The position numbers were made by a program. A DNA stretch of 13,293 nt from a virus (taxonomy: Duplodnaviria > Heunggongvirae > Uroviricota > Caudoviricetes): IMG/VR virus record IMGVR_UViG_2711768048_000003; one strand, 5' to 3'. How positions within the stretch are numbered: position 1 is the first letter of the stretch; every line of letters starts with the position of its first letter. Of the stretch, positions 1 to 6,000 are shown one piece after another.

Positions 1-3000
1 TCACTCTGCCAGATGGCGCAATGCCATCTGGTATCACTTAAAGGTATTAAAAACAACTTTTTGTCTTTTTACCTTCCCGTTTCGCTCAAGTTAGTATAAA
101 AAAGCTGAACGAGAAACGTAAAATGATATAAATATCAATATATTAAATTAGATTTTGCATAAAAAACAGACTACATAATACTGTAAAACACAACATATGC
201 AGTCACTATGAATCAACTACTTAGATGGTATTAGTGACCTGTAACAGAGCATTAGCGCAAGGTGATTTTTTGTCCTCTTGCGCTAATTTTTTGTCATCAA
301 ACATGTCGTTCTCCAGAGAAGCATAAAGCCTTGCAATCAAGTGCAAAGCTTTGTGTACCAGAATTTTTCCTCATCAACTACCACAAGTATCGATCGATTG
401 AGACTTGGATGATAGACTTCATGCCTTTCAGAACTCATTGATTACATAAATGTTAAAGCTATTTGCAAAGTACACCTCGATTGGTGTGCTGAACACACTT
501 ATACACTGGGTGGTTTTTGGTGTATGTATCTATGCCGCGCATACCAATCAGGCTCTGGCAAACTTCGCAGGTTTCTTTGTGGCTGTGAGCTTTAGCTTCT
601 TCGCGAATGCAAAATTCACATTCAAAGCATCGACTACAACGATGCGCTACATGTTATATGTCGGGTTCATGGGAACACTGAGTGCTACTGTTGGATGGGC
701 TGCTGATAAGTGCTCGCTTCCTCCAATTATCACTCTTATCACCTTCTCCGCCCTCAGCCTGGTGTGCGGTTTCGTCTATTCAAAGTTCATTGTCTTTAGG
801 GATGCGAAATGAAGATATCTCTTGTAGTTCCTGTCTTCAATGAAGAAGAAGCGATACCAATTTTTTATAAAACGGTACGTGAATTCGAAGAATTGAAGTC
901 ATATGAAGTGGAAATCGTTTTCATAAATGACGGCAGCAAAGATGCTACGGAGTCAATTATTAATGCTCTGGGTGTTTCAGACCCTCTAGTTGTTCCGCTG
1001 TCATTTACGCGCAACTTTGGTAAGGAACCAGCATTGTTTGCAGGGTTAGACCATGCAACCGGGGATGCTGTAATTCCAATTGATGTTGACCTGCAGGATC
1101 CTATAGAGGTTATCCCTCATCTTATTAAGAAATGGCGGGTCGGTGCAGATATGGTGCTTGCTAAGCGTACAGATCGTTCAACAGATGGTCGATTAAAACG
1201 TAAGACTGCCGAGTGGTTTTATAAGTTGCACAACAAAATCAGCACTCCTAAGATAGAAGAAAATGTTGGTGACTTTCGCCTGATGTCCCGTGAAGTAGTA
1301 GATAACATCAAGTTGCTTCAAGAAAGAAATCTTTTTATGAAGGGGGTACTTAGTTGGGTTGGTGGAAGAACCGATGTCGTCGAATACACTCGCGCTGAGC
1401 GTATAGCGGGTAACTCAAAGTTTAATGGATGGAAACTATGGAATCTTGCACTCGAGGGGATTACAAGTTTTTCTACATTCCCTTTGCGAGTATGGACATA
1501 CATTGGCCTATTAGTTGCAGGAGTTGCTTTTATTTATGGGGCATTAATGATTCTTGACAAACTAATCTACGGAAACAATGTTCCAGGTTATCCTTCTCTA
1601 CTTGTATCAATACTCTTCCTTGGGGGGGTTCAACTTATTGGAATCGGAGTGCTAGGGGAATATATAGGAAGGATTTATTTAGAGTCCAAAAAAAGACCTC
1701 GTTACATTATAAAAAAAGGTAATAACTAATGTTTTCAAAAGAAACGATAAATAAATTATTTTATTTTACATGCATAATTTCATGCTTGGTAAGCATATTC
1801 CTTACATCTAGATTTAGCTATACATGGATCACAGATCCTGATTCAGCAAATAGCCCTATAATGTGGAAAGAGTTTTTGGCACATGGGTTTAATGCTTTCA
1901 ATAACTGGAAGCCAACATTTGATAACTGGTATTTTACCGTATACCCTATAAATTTTCTTTTATTTTTCATTTTTAATGAAAATGGCTTTGTGCCTTTAAT
2001 GCTTTCCAGTGCGATTTTCATAATTGCAATTTGCCTATGTTCATCAAAGATCGCAGATATCTTATCTGGTAAAACTGCTGCTTTTGCAGCATTAATATCA
2101 ATAACACTAATATCTCCAGATCTATATAGCAATTATTATTCGCATCCTTTTTCTCATAATTCAACAAATGCATTCGGATTTGTTGTATTAGCAATATACA
2201 TAATAACCCTCTCAAGCAAGAAAATAATTCCTGCCGCTTCCATTTTTATACTATTAGTACTTTCTGGAGCTTCTGATCCTTGGATATTGCCATCTTTTAC
2301 ACTACCTATATTGATATCTGAGGTTTACAATTCATTCATCAATAGAAAAAGTTACAAATACTTTATTTTTCTATTGCTTGCATTTTTAACATCTTATTTG
2401 AATCTAGTTCAACACCTTTTTGATCTACCGACTGGCGGGTTCAAAATAACAACATTTGAGCAGATGATATCTAATGCACAGTATGCAATAGTATTAACAG
2501 CAAAAATGATGCCATTGTGGGTAAACCCATCAGCATCTATGTCATATTTTATTGTTTTCATATGGGTGGCCGTGTTCATAGCAGCTGCTTTAGTTTGTTT
2601 TAATAGAGGTAAAGAATTACGTATCTTTTCTATTTGCTGCGTCCTTTCAGTTCTTGGAATTTACTCTTCATCTATAATTGGAGATCAATTTCCGCATCAA
2701 CGTTTTTATGTAAATGTTGCTCCCGTTGTTTTCTTGTTAACCTCTGTAGCCATAAGATTTTATAAAGCTTTCTTAATACCAATTTTCATAACTATTTGTG
2801 TTTCTGTTTATGGGTATTGTAACTCACCATTAAAATATGAAGAAAATAAAAACCCAGTTTATGAATATATGACTTTCCTTTCCAACAATAATCTAAGTTA
2901 TGGTTATGGTAGTTTTTGGTATTCTATGAATATGACAGTGAATTGGTTATCAAAAGACCAAATACATATAACACCTGTTTTCTTTAACCCTGAAACTGGT

Positions 3001-6000
3001 GTTGTGTATTTTCAGCCTGCAAGAATACAAACACTGTCTTCATGGCATACAAAGGAATTCATAAGCGGTAAACCAAACAGACAGTTTATTGCCATAACTC
3101 AGGGACAAACCGGTGGTGATACATGTCCAAACGTTCAAATATGTATTGATGGTGCTCAGAAGCAATTAGGAAAAGCCGATGAAATCCTATCATATAAGAA
3201 CACAACATTCTTGGTGTACAACAAACCAATTGAAACAGATATAAAGTAATTTAATGCAAGAGAGGGATATTTCCCTCTCTTTTTTATTAATAATTCCCCT
3301 CAGAAAGGAAGCTGTAAACCCCGGGACCACCTGCAATATTACATGTCCACGCCTTTGGTTGTCCTGAAGCAGGTGCGCTATTGATAACGCGTTCGCCTAT
3401 ATCCCAGAAACCGGATGTAGGTACTGACGAAAGATAAAATGTTGTTTTTTCAACTTGTAACGCATTTGATGGCATTCCATATACACAAAGAGACGGTGAG
3501 TTTATGAGTACATTTCCTGAACCATAATTTCTTATGCCAACATTTATAGCTGTAGCCGTTGCGTCTATATACACACCACAACTAACATAGCGCCATTTCC
3601 CATTACCAGCTAAAGGTGCTGTAGAGTCTGTTTGTCCTGCACCATTAACTATAAACATAAGTTTTGACGCTGCTCCCTGGTCATTTACCCACGCACCAAA
3701 CCATACAAATTTCCCTTTTAGTTCTGGTGATTTGTTGAGGTCTATCGTTCGTCCCCAAACTCTATCTCCTGTCGTAACTAAGAATGAATAATTACCAGCA
3801 TAGATGTTTTGAGTTTTTATCAATGTTCCTGTGGTTCCAGATGTCGCGGTCCAGAGCAACATATTTCGATCAAGATAGTTAGCAGTTAACTCTCTGTTCG
3901 CAATATCTATTAAATGCGCAGTGTCAGGGTTTTGTGTCGCCGGGTCATAACTACCAACGTATCCTATGGAGTTCACTGTGTTGTTGGCAAGATATAGCCT
4001 GTCAGTAACTTTGGACGAAAGATTATTGTGGTACATTGCTAATAAATTATTCACTTTCGATACGTCTAATAACTGATTATTTTCAATCGTCAGGTTTTTC
4101 GCATAGTTCGTGAAAATAAATCCGTCTTGGTTAGGTAGCGCGCTGGCGTAGCCAATCGCGGTCTGCTGATTCCCGCGAATAGATACGGTATCATTAATTT
4201 TTGAAAGGTCAGGAATTAATGTAAAATTGTTCGCGATAAGGTGGATATCCGCACGTACTGTAATAGACTCAGGTACACTATACGGGTAACCAATCTCACC
4301 GTTGCGTTCCCAATAGTTATCATCAAGGTTAAGGCCTTTAACCCCGTAAGCCAAAAGTCCGTAGAACTTATTTTGCTCTATATTGTTGCCATTAACTCTG
4401 ACGCTCATACCGCCCTCAGCGTAAGCTGGCGTAAGTAAAACTCCACCGGCTCCGTTACCATAGATACGGCTGTTGATTATATTAATATTATTGCAGAAAC
4501 CACCAACATTAATACCGTTACCGGCGTTTTGAAACAACCGGCACCCAATGATGTCAATGGAGTAACCGTTAACTAATATTGCGTTGTTATTAGTATTAAC
4601 CACGTCAATATTTTCTATTTTAATGTGGTTGGCTTCAGTAAGACTGATGCCGTTAGCTGCGTAGCCATTTCCGTCAAGACCAAAGTCCCTGAACTCGCAG
4701 AACGCAATTACCCCATCTTGTTGCGTGATTATCGGTGCCGCTGTACCCGTAGAGAAAATTCTGGACTGATATGCGCCAGCACCTCGTATCATGGTGACAG
4801 TATTCTTAATCGTAATACCAGGGTCAACAATGAACGCCCCCTCTGGTATAACAATCTCAGTTGGCAACGTAGCATCATCAATAGCCTTCTGAAATGCAGC
4901 TTTGTTCTGAGCACCGGTGTTTCCCTCAGCAAACCCGTAGTCTGTAAGCGTCCTCAGGTCGATAGTTAGCTTTTTTGAGAGAATGGTCGATGTGCTATCG
5001 ACAAACTGTGGGTTATGCATGACTAGAGAGTCGCCAAGTGAGTGATCTTCGCTCAGGAGATTGCCCTTAAACTGATCTGGATCATACTTTAGCACATTCG
5101 GAAAATAGAACTGCTGCGCACCGTATGCATCATAAACAGCCATAGAATGGCCTTGCACAGTTACGAACTTGGCAATCTGTCCGTTATATACAGGGTAACC
5201 AGCAGCGTTAATGATGATTGGTTGCGAAACAGGAACGTGAGAGCCGTCTTCGTTTTCCACATAAACCTGAATCTGGTTTTCAGGATTTACCGGGTCCGTG
5301 TCAATTTTACCGATATAAATTTTGCCATTAGTTACGGCTTTAAAAGAACGCGCCATAGTGAAGAGTTGCGAAGGCATGCTTACCACAACATTTGCGGTGA
5401 TATCTGACATTTCATTGCTCCAGACGAATGATATGATGCAACCATGATGTGATTGCATACCGAAATGGTACTATTGAGTATTTATCCAGTAGGTTACGAT
5501 GCCATTCCACCCAACTGGTGAGGCATCAAGGATGTACAGCAAATACGACGAGGCGCAGTTTCACTTGAGACTTCCGCATGAACTCCACGCGAAAATTAAG
5601 CAGCGTGCGAAGATGAATAACAGGTCGCTGAACTCAGAGATAATTGCAGCGATTGAGGAATCATTGGATAAACAAAGCTCTGCATCAGTTTACATTGACG
5701 ATGCAGAGCGTATGGCAGAACAACAATCTGATATGGTTAAGAAAATTGTCTTTGATACGCTCAAGAAGCTATATAAAAAAGACAGCAGATAACCATCCGT
5801 TACGGAGGATTTATGCACAGAGATATGCTGAATATTGCGTTCTACATATTTGGTTTTTGCACGTTCCTGGTGTTTGCAAAGCTATTCTGACAACGCATCA
5901 GACTTAGCCCCCTGCGTCAGGGCGTTAATGGCCTTTTGCGCCTGCTGCATGGCTTTCTCAAACGCTGTTGATCCGCGTGGGGTGTTTGCCATTCGGAGCA

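What the first reader, a model, noticed from the sequence alone, without database searches (positions are those of the whole stretch)
1729..3249. Very AT-rich type-specific gtr gene: compositionally foreign cassette inside the operon
Hand counts of single 60-nt samples give about 23% GC at 1741-1800 versus about 60% at 7501-7560 in the late genes. gtrA and gtrB look intermediate by eye. The third gene therefore looks like a separately acquired, exchangeable serotype module fused by a 1-nt overlap to conserved gtrAB. At 506 aa it is longer than several characterised Gtr type enzymes, so it may specify an uncommon glucosylation.
Basis: partly seen in the sequence, partly recalled or inferred. 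Interest (0 to 1): 0.5.

Follow-up and report, generated by a model that had tools for sequence, protein, structure and literature searches.

The report
AT-rich GtrI-family O-antigen glucosyltransferase gene
The AT-rich third gene of this prophage operon is an uncharacterised relative of the Shigella serotype-1 enzyme GtrI that most likely adds glucose to the host's O-antigen; it is an ordinary example of a well-known swappable phage module, although the sugar it modifies is unknown.

Summary
Gene 1729-3249 has 32.3% GC (GC3 25.6%), against 45.5% for gtrA, 40.3% for gtrB and about 51% for the late genes. Unsupervised segmentation isolates 1659-3295 as a separate compositional block. The 1-nt TAATG overlap with gtrB is real.

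Comparisons show the exchanged unit is usually larger than the gene. Against the closest backbone relatives, gene 3 and the tailspike receptor-binding part (1732-5064) are replaced together. A lambda-like Citrobacter prophage carries gtrABC plus the same tailspike receptor-binding domain. Another Escherichia prophage has its breakpoints inside gtrB and inside the tailspike.

Variable, mobile gtr(type) genes are established knowledge. This is a new member of a known kind, and its acceptor sugar is unknown.

The parts
91..105 (-). Lambda att core GCTTTTTTATACTAA. This is the prophage/chromosome junction next to ybhB-bio (context, not part of the operon).
   Evidence: Exact match, 0 expected by chance. 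The 99.99%-identical locus L006 has ybhB/bioA immediately to the left.
320..449 (+). Upstream region of gtrA, conserved with other gtr operons (presumed promoter/leader). It holds only one GATC (392-395).
   Evidence: Homology to SfI, SfII, SfV and to the E. coli ANT prophage begins at 320-324. Sequence read. The P22-type phase switch needs four GATC sites (PMC2909390).
450..812 (+). gtrA, 120 aa. Small membrane protein proposed to flip undecaprenyl-phosphate-glucose.
   Evidence: PF04138, E 2e-13. 91% aa identity to SfI GtrA and 97% to the E. coli ANT prophage GtrA. GC 45.5%.
809..1729 (+). gtrB, 306 aa. GT2 bactoprenol glucosyltransferase that makes Und-P-Glc from UDP-Glc.
   Evidence: PF00535, E 2e-29. 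89% aa identity to SfI GtrB. GC 40.3%. dN/dS 0.02-0.05.
1729..3249 (+). gtr(type) gene, 506 aa. GtrI-family membrane glycosyltransferase with a GT-C fold. AT-rich (32.3% GC). This is the finding.
3258..3281 (+). Intrinsic terminator hairpin (10-bp stem) followed by a T-run. It ends the gtr operon and lies between the convergent gene 3 and tailspike.
   Evidence: Sequence shown.
3287..5071 (-). Tailspike receptor-binding part (residues about 129-723 of the long ORF), of unknown specificity. It is co-inherited with gene 3 in several prophages.
   Evidence: Weak Beta_helix Pfam hit. No PDB sequence homologue. Only phage N7 matches, at 59%. 79% aa identity to the Citrobacter prophage tailspike from residue 129 on. 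Replaced together with gene 3 relative to L004 and L005.
5072..5410 (-). Tailspike P22-type head-binding domain, part of the conserved phage backbone. The likely true start is the ATG at 5410 (707-aa product). The ORF from the first ATG runs to 5458.
   Evidence: PF09008, E 4e-67, starting at residue 17. PDB tailspikes align from residue 17-18. The gene is called as 707 aa in L006-L008. 96-97% nt identity to L004 and L005 begins at 5065.

Best explanation
Gene 1729-3249 is the serotype-specific third enzyme of a prophage gtrABC O-antigen glucosylation operon.

Proposed mechanism:
- GtrB makes undecaprenyl-phosphate-glucose on the cytoplasmic face of the inner membrane.
- GtrA brings it to the periplasmic face.
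- The 506-aa GT-C-fold product of gene 3, a member of the GtrI family, transfers that glucose to one defined sugar of the growing O-antigen.

Inferred anatomy of the enzyme: 11 transmembrane helices, with the N-terminus in the cytoplasm. The conserved first periplasmic loop (invariant D38, N41, S42 and T63-x-D65-N-W-Y-F-T70) would form the donor/catalytic site. A roughly 120-residue C-terminal periplasmic alpha/beta domain would help select the acceptor.

The modification most likely makes the lysogen's O-antigen a poor substrate for the tailspike encoded convergently next to it. That would block superinfection and protect the O-antigen from the prophage's own tailspike.

The gene is AT-rich because it belongs to an old, AT-rich pool of prophage-borne accessory genes. 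It is shuffled by homologous recombination in the conserved flanks (gtrB on one side, the tailspike gene on the other), often together with the tailspike receptor-binding domain.

Shown here: homology, fold, operon context, composition, recombination breakpoints and purifying selection. Inferred: donor, topology, catalytic residues, acceptor and the exclusion role.
For: Operon context:
- GtrA (PF04138) and GtrB (PF00535) lie directly upstream, with a TAATG overlap.
- A terminator follows gene 3.

Family:
- 38.8% identity to GtrI of SfI over 490 residues, blastp E 1e-105, same 506-aa length. P0023 in the alignment is GtrI itself (505/506 identical).
- 45 invariant columns across 34 homologues, concentrated in residues 36-90 (mean column identity 0.72) and 386-506 (0.59).

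Fold:
- AF2 pLDDT 91.4, pTM 0.90.
- The top 33 Foldseek PDB hits are all GT-C enzymes.
- The model shows a C-terminal strand-containing domain after the last helix bundle. This agrees with the long periplasmic C-terminus reported for GtrI, II, V and X (PMC3259042).

Functional constraint:
- dN/dS 0.075 against the Citrobacter homologue and 0.11 against the E. fergusonii homologue.
- The identical protein is indexed in 244 blocks of the assembly collection. The 24 contigs read put it in prophages at three chromosomal sites, always as gtrA-gtrB-gene 3 facing a tailspike.

Modular exchange: breakpoints at 1731 and 5065 against L004, at 1729 against SfI, and at about 1100 and 3900 against L021. 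The window tract 386-4974 is colinear with a lambda-like Citrobacter prophage.

Published basis:
- Gtr model and GtrI adding alpha-1,4 glucose to GlcNAc: PMC3636060 and PMC7685785.
- A gtrC product protecting the O-antigen from the adjacent convergent tailspike: PMC4413052.
Against: - No biochemical or serological data exist for this protein or for any relative closer than GtrI (38.8%). The transferred sugar, the acceptor residue and the linkage are all unknown.
- No curated Pfam or NCBIfam model hits it. Every database copy is named 'hypothetical protein'.
- The catalytic role of D38/D65 and the 11-helix topology are read from the model's secondary structure and the positive-inside rule. Coordinates were not inspected.
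- The prophage in the window is heavily deleted, so the exclusion role may be vestigial here.
- The tailspike receptor-binding domain has no characterised homologue. The link between modification and tailspike specificity is therefore by analogy only.
- In phage N7 the gene 3 remnant is 97% identical but the tailspike receptor-binding domain is only 59% identical. Linkage of the two is therefore not obligatory.
Confidence: 0.85

Rival explanations
1. The gene is a recent import from a low-GC donor organism, inserted on its own behind a resident gtrAB.
For: GC is 32% against 40-45% for gtrAB and 51% for the backbone. Homology to operons with unrelated third genes ends exactly at the gtrB stop codon. 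Distant family members in Phytobacter, Pantoea, Izhakiella and Erwinia are encoded at 44-50% GC, so the protein itself does not force low GC.
Against: All prophage-borne relatives of 45-88% identity (Citrobacter, E. fergusonii, Yersinia, Hafnia) and SfI gtrI at 38.8% are already 33-37% GC, with synonymous sites near or at saturation. The low GC therefore predates these splits by a long time. No IS elements, repeats or integrase flank the gene. Observed exchanges carry flanking DNA: 1732-5064 against L004, about 1100-3900 against L021, and 386-4974 shared with Citrobacter. No low-GC donor lineage turned up in any search.
Confidence: 0.1
2. The gene is simply GtrI under another guise. It would add alpha-1,4-glucose to GlcNAc of a Shigella flexneri-type O-antigen backbone carried by some E. 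coli, so nothing new is specified.
For: Same length and full-length homology to GtrI, with all family-invariant residues shared. From my own knowledge, some E. coli O groups have S. flexneri-like backbones; this was not tested here.
Against: Identity is only 38.8%, and 19-29% in three of the six segments compared. True GtrI (99% identical) exists separately in E. coli/Shigella assemblies as its own cluster, P0023 with 273 member sequences. The linked tailspike receptor-binding domain has no detectable similarity to any solved tailspike, including that of Sf6 beyond the head-binding region. In Salmonella, GtrC proteins that are at best 40% identical are treated as distinct types (PMC2629481).
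Confidence: 0.1
3. The product is not a glucosyltransferase but another O-antigen modifier, such as an acetyltransferase like Salmonella family-2 GtrC, or it is a decayed, non-functional remnant in a dead prophage.
For: The prophage is defective: head, lysis and immunity genes are missing. Deletion remnants of this very gene exist in phage N7 and in two E. coli genomes. No curated family names it.
Against: The fold is GT-C, not acyltransferase-3, and there is no acyltransferase Pfam hit. The ORF is intact and identical in sequence in 244 indexed blocks, and dN/dS is 0.075-0.11. Intact gtrAB, which supply a lipid-linked glucose donor, are translationally coupled to it.
Confidence: 0.05

Closest known systems
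GtrI of Shigella flexneri phage SfI (serotype 1 glucosyltransferase; adds alpha-1,4 glucose to GlcNAc)
   Same: Same family: 38.8% identity over 490 of 506 residues, identical length, shared invariant motifs (PDxANSP, T-x-DNWYFT, HPFSH, SDPW). Same position directly after gtrAB in a prophage next to the attachment site. Both are about 33% GC.
   Different: Over 60% of residues differ. The carrier phage is P22-like with a tailspike, not a myovirus with tail fibres. The host is E. coli. The attachment site is lambda attB, argW or dacD rather than thrW/proA. Acceptor specificity is unknown and probably different.
gtrABC lysogenic-conversion operons of P22-like phages (P22, epsilon34, BTP1)
   Same: Same layout: att site, then gtrA-gtrB-gtrC facing a convergent tailspike gene. 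The third gene is variable and gtrAB conserved. The clusters are mobile between phage types (PMC2629481; PMC3688519). The product protects against the neighbouring tailspike (PMC4413052).
   Different: The third gene belongs to a different sequence family from the P22 and epsilon34 GtrC proteins: tblastn against 50,697 phage records hit only N7 and SfI. The four-GATC Dam/OxyR phase-variation architecture of P22 gtr is absent, with a single GATC upstream.
GT-C superfamily lipid-phosphate-sugar transferases (ArnT, PglB/STT3, PMT, ALG, Emb/Aft)
   Different: Only 8-13% sequence identity. GtrI itself reaches only a sub-threshold PMT_2 score of 16.7 bits against a 26.1-bit cut-off. The C-terminal periplasmic domain is much smaller, and the acceptor is an O-antigen polysaccharide.
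GtrII-type glucosyltransferases (annotated 'glucosyltransferase domain-containing protein'), as in the E. coli ANT prophage L004
   Same: Occupies the same slot after gtrB with the same TAATG overlap, and is also AT-rich (37.3% GC).
   Different: No detectable sequence similarity to the window protein: no tblastn hit at E 1e-5 in L004. The window protein hits no Pfam family. L004's protein is 470 aa against 506 aa.

Membership tests
gtr (GtrA/GtrB/Gtr-type) O-antigen glucosylation operon | GtrA-family small membrane protein encoded first | tested here: met
   PF04138, E 2e-13. 91% identical to SfI GtrA.
gtr (GtrA/GtrB/Gtr-type) O-antigen glucosylation operon | GT2 bactoprenol glucosyltransferase GtrB encoded second | tested here: met
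   PF00535, E 2e-29. 89% identical to SfI GtrB.
gtr (GtrA/GtrB/Gtr-type) O-antigen glucosylation operon | Variable polytopic membrane protein encoded immediately downstream, in a prophage near the attachment site | tested here: met
   1-nt overlap with gtrB. About 11 long hydrophobic helices in the model and in the hydropathy scan. Lambda att core at 91-105 and P22-like genes on the other side.
gtr (GtrA/GtrB/Gtr-type) O-antigen glucosylation operon | Causes glucosylation of the O-antigen / serotype conversion | not testable with these tools
   Needs LPS chemistry or serology of a strain expressing 450-3249.
GtrI family | Significant full-length sequence similarity to SfI GtrI | tested here: met
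   tblastn 38.4% over 93% of the query, E 9e-86. blastp 38.8% over 490 aa, E 1e-105. GtrI is the top hit of the family profile.
GtrI family | About 506 aa with a long C-terminal periplasmic domain | tested here: inconclusive
   The length is identical. The model has a C-terminal alpha/beta domain at 386-506. Its periplasmic location is inferred from helix count and positive-inside residues, and matches the published GtrI topology (PMC3259042), but was not tested.
GtrI family | Adds alpha-1,4-glucose to GlcNAc of the S. flexneri backbone (type I antigen) | not testable with these tools
   No acceptor information is available. At 38.8% identity the same specificity cannot be assumed.
GT-C fold glycosyltransferases | GT-C transmembrane fold | tested here: met
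GT-C fold glycosyltransferases | Conserved acidic residue(s) in the first extracytoplasmic loop | tested here: met
   D38 and D65 are invariant in 34 homologues and lie between helix 4-35 and helix 87-113 of the model. A catalytic role was not tested.
GtrII-type glucosyltransferases (as annotated in L004) | Detectable sequence similarity to a GtrII-type protein, or a Pfam glucosyltransferase-domain hit | tested here: not met
   No Pfam family at E <= 0.01. No tblastn hit of gene 3 in L004, which carries such a gene.
Acyltransferase-3 type O-antigen modifiers (Oac, Salmonella family-2 GtrC) | Acyltransferase-3 domain or fold | tested here: not met
   No Pfam hit. The fold matches are GT-C only.

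The most novel reading that the evidence does not exclude
This GtrI-like enzyme adds a glucose side-branch that nobody has yet assigned to a gene, on one of the E. coli O-antigens whose D-Glc branch has no glycosyltransferase in the O-antigen cluster. Together with the uncharacterised tailspike receptor-binding domain facing it, it forms a matched 'recognise and then mask' cassette. That cassette moves as a unit between podovirus (P22-like) and siphovirus (lambda-like) prophages and across genera (Escherichia, Citrobacter).
Probability: 0.45. Interest if true: 0.4.

Novelty: new member of a known kind. Interest (0 to 1): 0.25.

Why it matters
[quoted passage not shown] Those branches are attributed to largely unidentified prophage gtr genes (PMC7685785).

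This gene is one candidate. It is annotated everywhere as 'hypothetical protein' and is missed by Pfam and NCBIfam. A GtrI-family profile would therefore improve prophage and in-silico serotype annotation.

The linkage to a tailspike receptor-binding domain gives a practical handle: the tailspike could be used as a probe to find the O-antigen that the enzyme modifies.

None of this changes the accepted picture of gtr biology.

Tried and rejected
- Pfam, NCBIfam and PDB sequence searches of gene 3 gave nothing. Only tblastn against phages, the large protein search and the fold comparison placed it.
- I tried to infer the target O-antigen from the tailspike. Its receptor-binding part has no PDB sequence homologue, and phage N7 is the only full-length match, at 59%. 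No inference was possible. The apparent extension of the Sf6 tailspike match to residue 272 disappeared when the receptor-binding part was searched alone.
- I first concluded that low GC is a trait of the whole family. The scan of species-representative genomes corrected this: family members range from 32% to 50% GC. The claim is now limited to the enterobacterial prophage-borne clade.
- I looked for transposon-like repeats or IS elements around the gene and found none.
- I looked for structured RNAs and found no Rfam hit in the window.
- I looked for the P22-type Dam/OxyR phase-variation switch. There is only one GATC upstream of gtrA, so that architecture is absent.
- Literature searches found no paper on this protein or on phage N7's host O-antigen.
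- An O125ab lead was only a general speculation about Gtr and has no link to this gene.

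
Full report
**1. The observation**

| Feature | GC |
|---|---|
| Gene 3 (1729-3249) | 32.3% (codon positions 34.7 / 36.5 / 25.6%) |
| gtrA | 45.5% |
| gtrB | 40.3% |
| Tailspike | 42.7% |
| Ejection/tail genes | 48-52% |

- A 300-nt sliding profile shows a trough of 29-36% between about 1500 and 3300.
- Recursive Jensen-Shannon segmentation, run without gene coordinates, gives four blocks: 1-1658 (40.7%), 1659-3295 (31.8%), 3296-5858 (42.6%) and 5859-13293 (50.7%).
- Gene 3 lies 10.4 binomial SD below the window mean and 7.5 SD below gtrAB.
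- Recoding the protein with the late genes' synonymous codon usage would give 41.9% GC. So roughly half of the deficit is amino-acid composition (I 11%, F 9.5%, N 6.3%, Y 5.5%) and half is AT-ending codon choice.
- The TAATG overlap is real: gtrB stop at 1727-1729, gene 3 ATG at 1729-1731.

**2. Where the window comes from**

- Pfam identifies GtrA, GtrB, a P22-type tailspike (head-binding domain plus beta-helix), an Mnt/Arc repressor, and the P22 ejection proteins gp16, gp20 and gp7.
- The window is 99.99% identical to an E. coli draft-genome locus (L006) in which ybhB and the bio operon lie immediately to the left.
- The lambda att core GCTTTTTTATACTAA is at 91-105.
- After the tail-needle gene the structural genes stop and early-region genes follow (NinE, Anti-RecBCD). 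The prophage is therefore a deleted remnant.

**3. What gene 3 is**

Sequence:
- Pfam, NCBIfam and PDB sequence searches find nothing.
- tblastn against 50,697 phage records finds only a truncated copy in Escherichia phage N7 and GtrI of Shigella phage SfI (38.4% over 93% of the query, E 9e-86).
- GtrI is also exactly 506 aa. Pairwise blastp gives 38.8% over 490 residues.
- The large protein search returns 44 homologues of 31-99% identity, nearly all 495-526 aa and nearly all unnamed. P0023 among them is GtrI itself (505/506 identical).
- The alignment has 45 invariant columns, including D38, N41, S42, T63, D65-N-W-Y-F-T70, H139-P-F-S-H143 and S182-D-P-W185.
- Conservation is highest in residues 36-90 and 386-506.

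Structure:
- AlphaFold2 on this alignment gives pLDDT 91.4 and pTM 0.90.
- The top 33 Foldseek PDB hits are all GT-C enzymes.
- The model has about 11 membrane helices, two short helices in the first external loop, and a C-terminal alpha/beta domain. This agrees with the experimentally derived picture that GtrI, II, V and X have a long periplasmic C-terminus, thought to confer serotype specificity, and an N-terminal periplasmic loop that handles Und-P-glucose (PMC3259042).

Family size and constraint:
- A profile search of 1.84 billion representative proteins finds 755 relatives at E <= 1e-3 and 169 at E <= 1e-30.
- GtrI itself reaches only a sub-threshold PMT_2 score. The family has no Pfam model in the copy searched.
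- dN/dS is 0.075 and 0.11 against the 88% and 61% homologues.
- The identical protein is indexed in 244 blocks of the assembly collection. It is an intact gene under purifying selection.

**4. How it most likely works**

The following comes from the established Gtr model (PMC7685785; PMC2629481):
- GtrB charges undecaprenyl phosphate with glucose.
- GtrA brings the product to the periplasmic face.
- The type enzyme transfers the glucose to a specific O-unit sugar.

The GT-C fold, the invariant acidic residues in the first external loop and the coupling to gtrAB all fit this. The donor, the catalytic residues, the topology and the acceptor remain inferences.

The biological role is most likely masking of the O-antigen against the neighbouring tailspike. 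This has been shown for P22 and for BTP1, where GtrC protects the O-antigen from the convergently encoded tailspike (PMC4413052).

**5. Is it a separately acquired single-gene cassette?**

Partly.

Evidence for a junction at the gene boundary:
- Homology to gtr operons with unrelated third genes ends at the gtrB stop codon: SfI 324-1729 and E. coli ANT prophage 320-1731.

Evidence that the exchanged unit is usually larger:
- *E. coli ANT (L004) and SB0258h1 (L005).* These are the closest backbone relatives, 96-97% identical from 5065-5066 rightwards. They differ over the whole of 1732-5064, which is gene 3 plus the tailspike receptor-binding part. ANT carries a GtrII-type gene and a different tailspike body. 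SB0258h1 carries an acyltransferase instead of gtrABC.
- *Other E. coli prophages.* The block 322-5800 recurs at 99.3% identity on another P22-like backbone at argW. At dacD the shared tract runs 322-7663 at 98.3%.
- *Citrobacter prophage (L010/L011).* It has lambda-like tail genes and a different tailspike adaptor domain. It is colinear with the window at 386-4974 (78.7% nt). Its GtrC is 88% identical, and its tailspike is 79% identical from residue 129 on, which is where the head-binding domain ends.
- *Escherichia sp. E1V33 (L021).* It shares 97.5-100% identity only over about 1100-3900, from mid-gtrB to about 200 codons into the 3' end of the tailspike, with 64-83% outside.
- *Phage N7 and two E. 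coli chromosomes.* They hold a deletion remnant: gtrA nt 1-59 joined to gene 3 from nt 853 on. It is 97% identical up to window position 3427, after which the tailspike diverges.
- No repeats or IS elements flank the gene.

Exchange is therefore by homologous recombination in conserved flanks, not restricted to gene boundaries, as described for Salmonella gtr operons (PMC3688519). It often carries the tailspike receptor-binding domain along.

**6. Meaning of the low GC**

- Prophage-borne relatives in Citrobacter, E. fergusonii, Yersinia and Hafnia, and in phage SfI, are all 33-37% GC.
- In 20 species-representative genomes the family ranges from 32% to 50% GC. Phytobacter, Pantoea, Izhakiella and Erwinia copies are at 44-50%, with GC3 of 50-60%.
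- The protein therefore does not force low GC. The AT-richness is an old feature of the enterobacterial prophage lineage, not a mark of recent import.
- 12 of these 20 loci have gtrB directly upstream.

**7. Comparison with what is known, and verdict**

Variable, serotype-specific third genes behind conserved gtrAB, their prophage location and their mobility between phage types are textbook.

What is new here is modest:
- An uncharacterised GtrI-family member, universally annotated 'hypothetical'.
- It is absent as a full-length gene from 5,426 complete E. coli genomes, but present in many draft assemblies.
- It is linked to an uncharacterised tailspike.

The length argument for an 'uncommon glucosylation' fails, because GtrI has the same length. 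A specificity different from GtrI is nevertheless plausible at 38.8% identity.

Novelty: new member of a known kind. Interest: low (0.25).

Noticed in passing
window 91-300: The lambda att core GCTTTTTTATACTAA (91-105, minus strand) is followed by sequence I recognise from memory as the lambda attP P-arm. A hairpin at 244-294 resembles lambda's sib/tI terminator. So this P22-like prophage uses the lambda integration site next to ybhB-bio. Other copies of the same gtr-tailspike block sit at argW and at dacD.
   Followed up: partly
window 11620-13293: The prophage is a deleted remnant. Homology to intact P22-like prophages ends at about 11832-11843, after the tail-needle gene. Next come a NinE fragment (about 11856-12032, minus strand), an Rv2179c-like exonuclease gene (12062-12529) and anti-RecBCD abc2 (12546-12839). 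Head, portal, terminase, lysis and immunity genes are missing between them.
   Followed up: partly
L001 (phage N7) 5836-6669; L002 (E. coli FDN-24) 5836-6669: An identical internal deletion joins the first 59 nt of gtrA to nt 853 of gene 3, removing gtrB. It occurs in a sequenced free phage genome (N7) and in two chicken E. coli chromosomes. In those genomes the leftover is annotated as a hypothetical protein.
   Followed up: yes
window 320-449: There is only one GATC (392-395) upstream of gtrA. The four-GATC Dam/OxyR phase-variation switch described for P22 and many Salmonella gtr operons is absent. Expression is probably not phase-variable in that way.
   Followed up: partly
window 1729-3249 vs L011 3158-4678: Gene 3 is closer to its Citrobacter homologue at the nucleotide level (84.9%, dS 0.79) than the flanking genes are: gtrA 76.9%, gtrB 78.6%, tailspike receptor-binding part 72.0%, with dS 1.7 to saturated. 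Either gene 3 was exchanged more recently than its flanks, or its extreme AT bias limits synonymous change. This is unresolved.
   Followed up: no
L005 (E. coli SB0258h1) 1680-4723: At the same position a 97%-identical phage backbone carries an acyltransferase-family gene instead of gtrABC, next to a different tailspike body. The slot between the att site and the tailspike head-binding domain therefore holds alternative pairs of an O-antigen modification gene and a receptor-binding domain.
   Followed up: partly
window 5410-5458: The longest tailspike ORF (723 aa, start at 5458) probably over-extends. Pfam and PDB tailspike alignments begin at residue 17, and identical loci are called as 707 aa, which puts the start at 5410.
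   Followed up: yes
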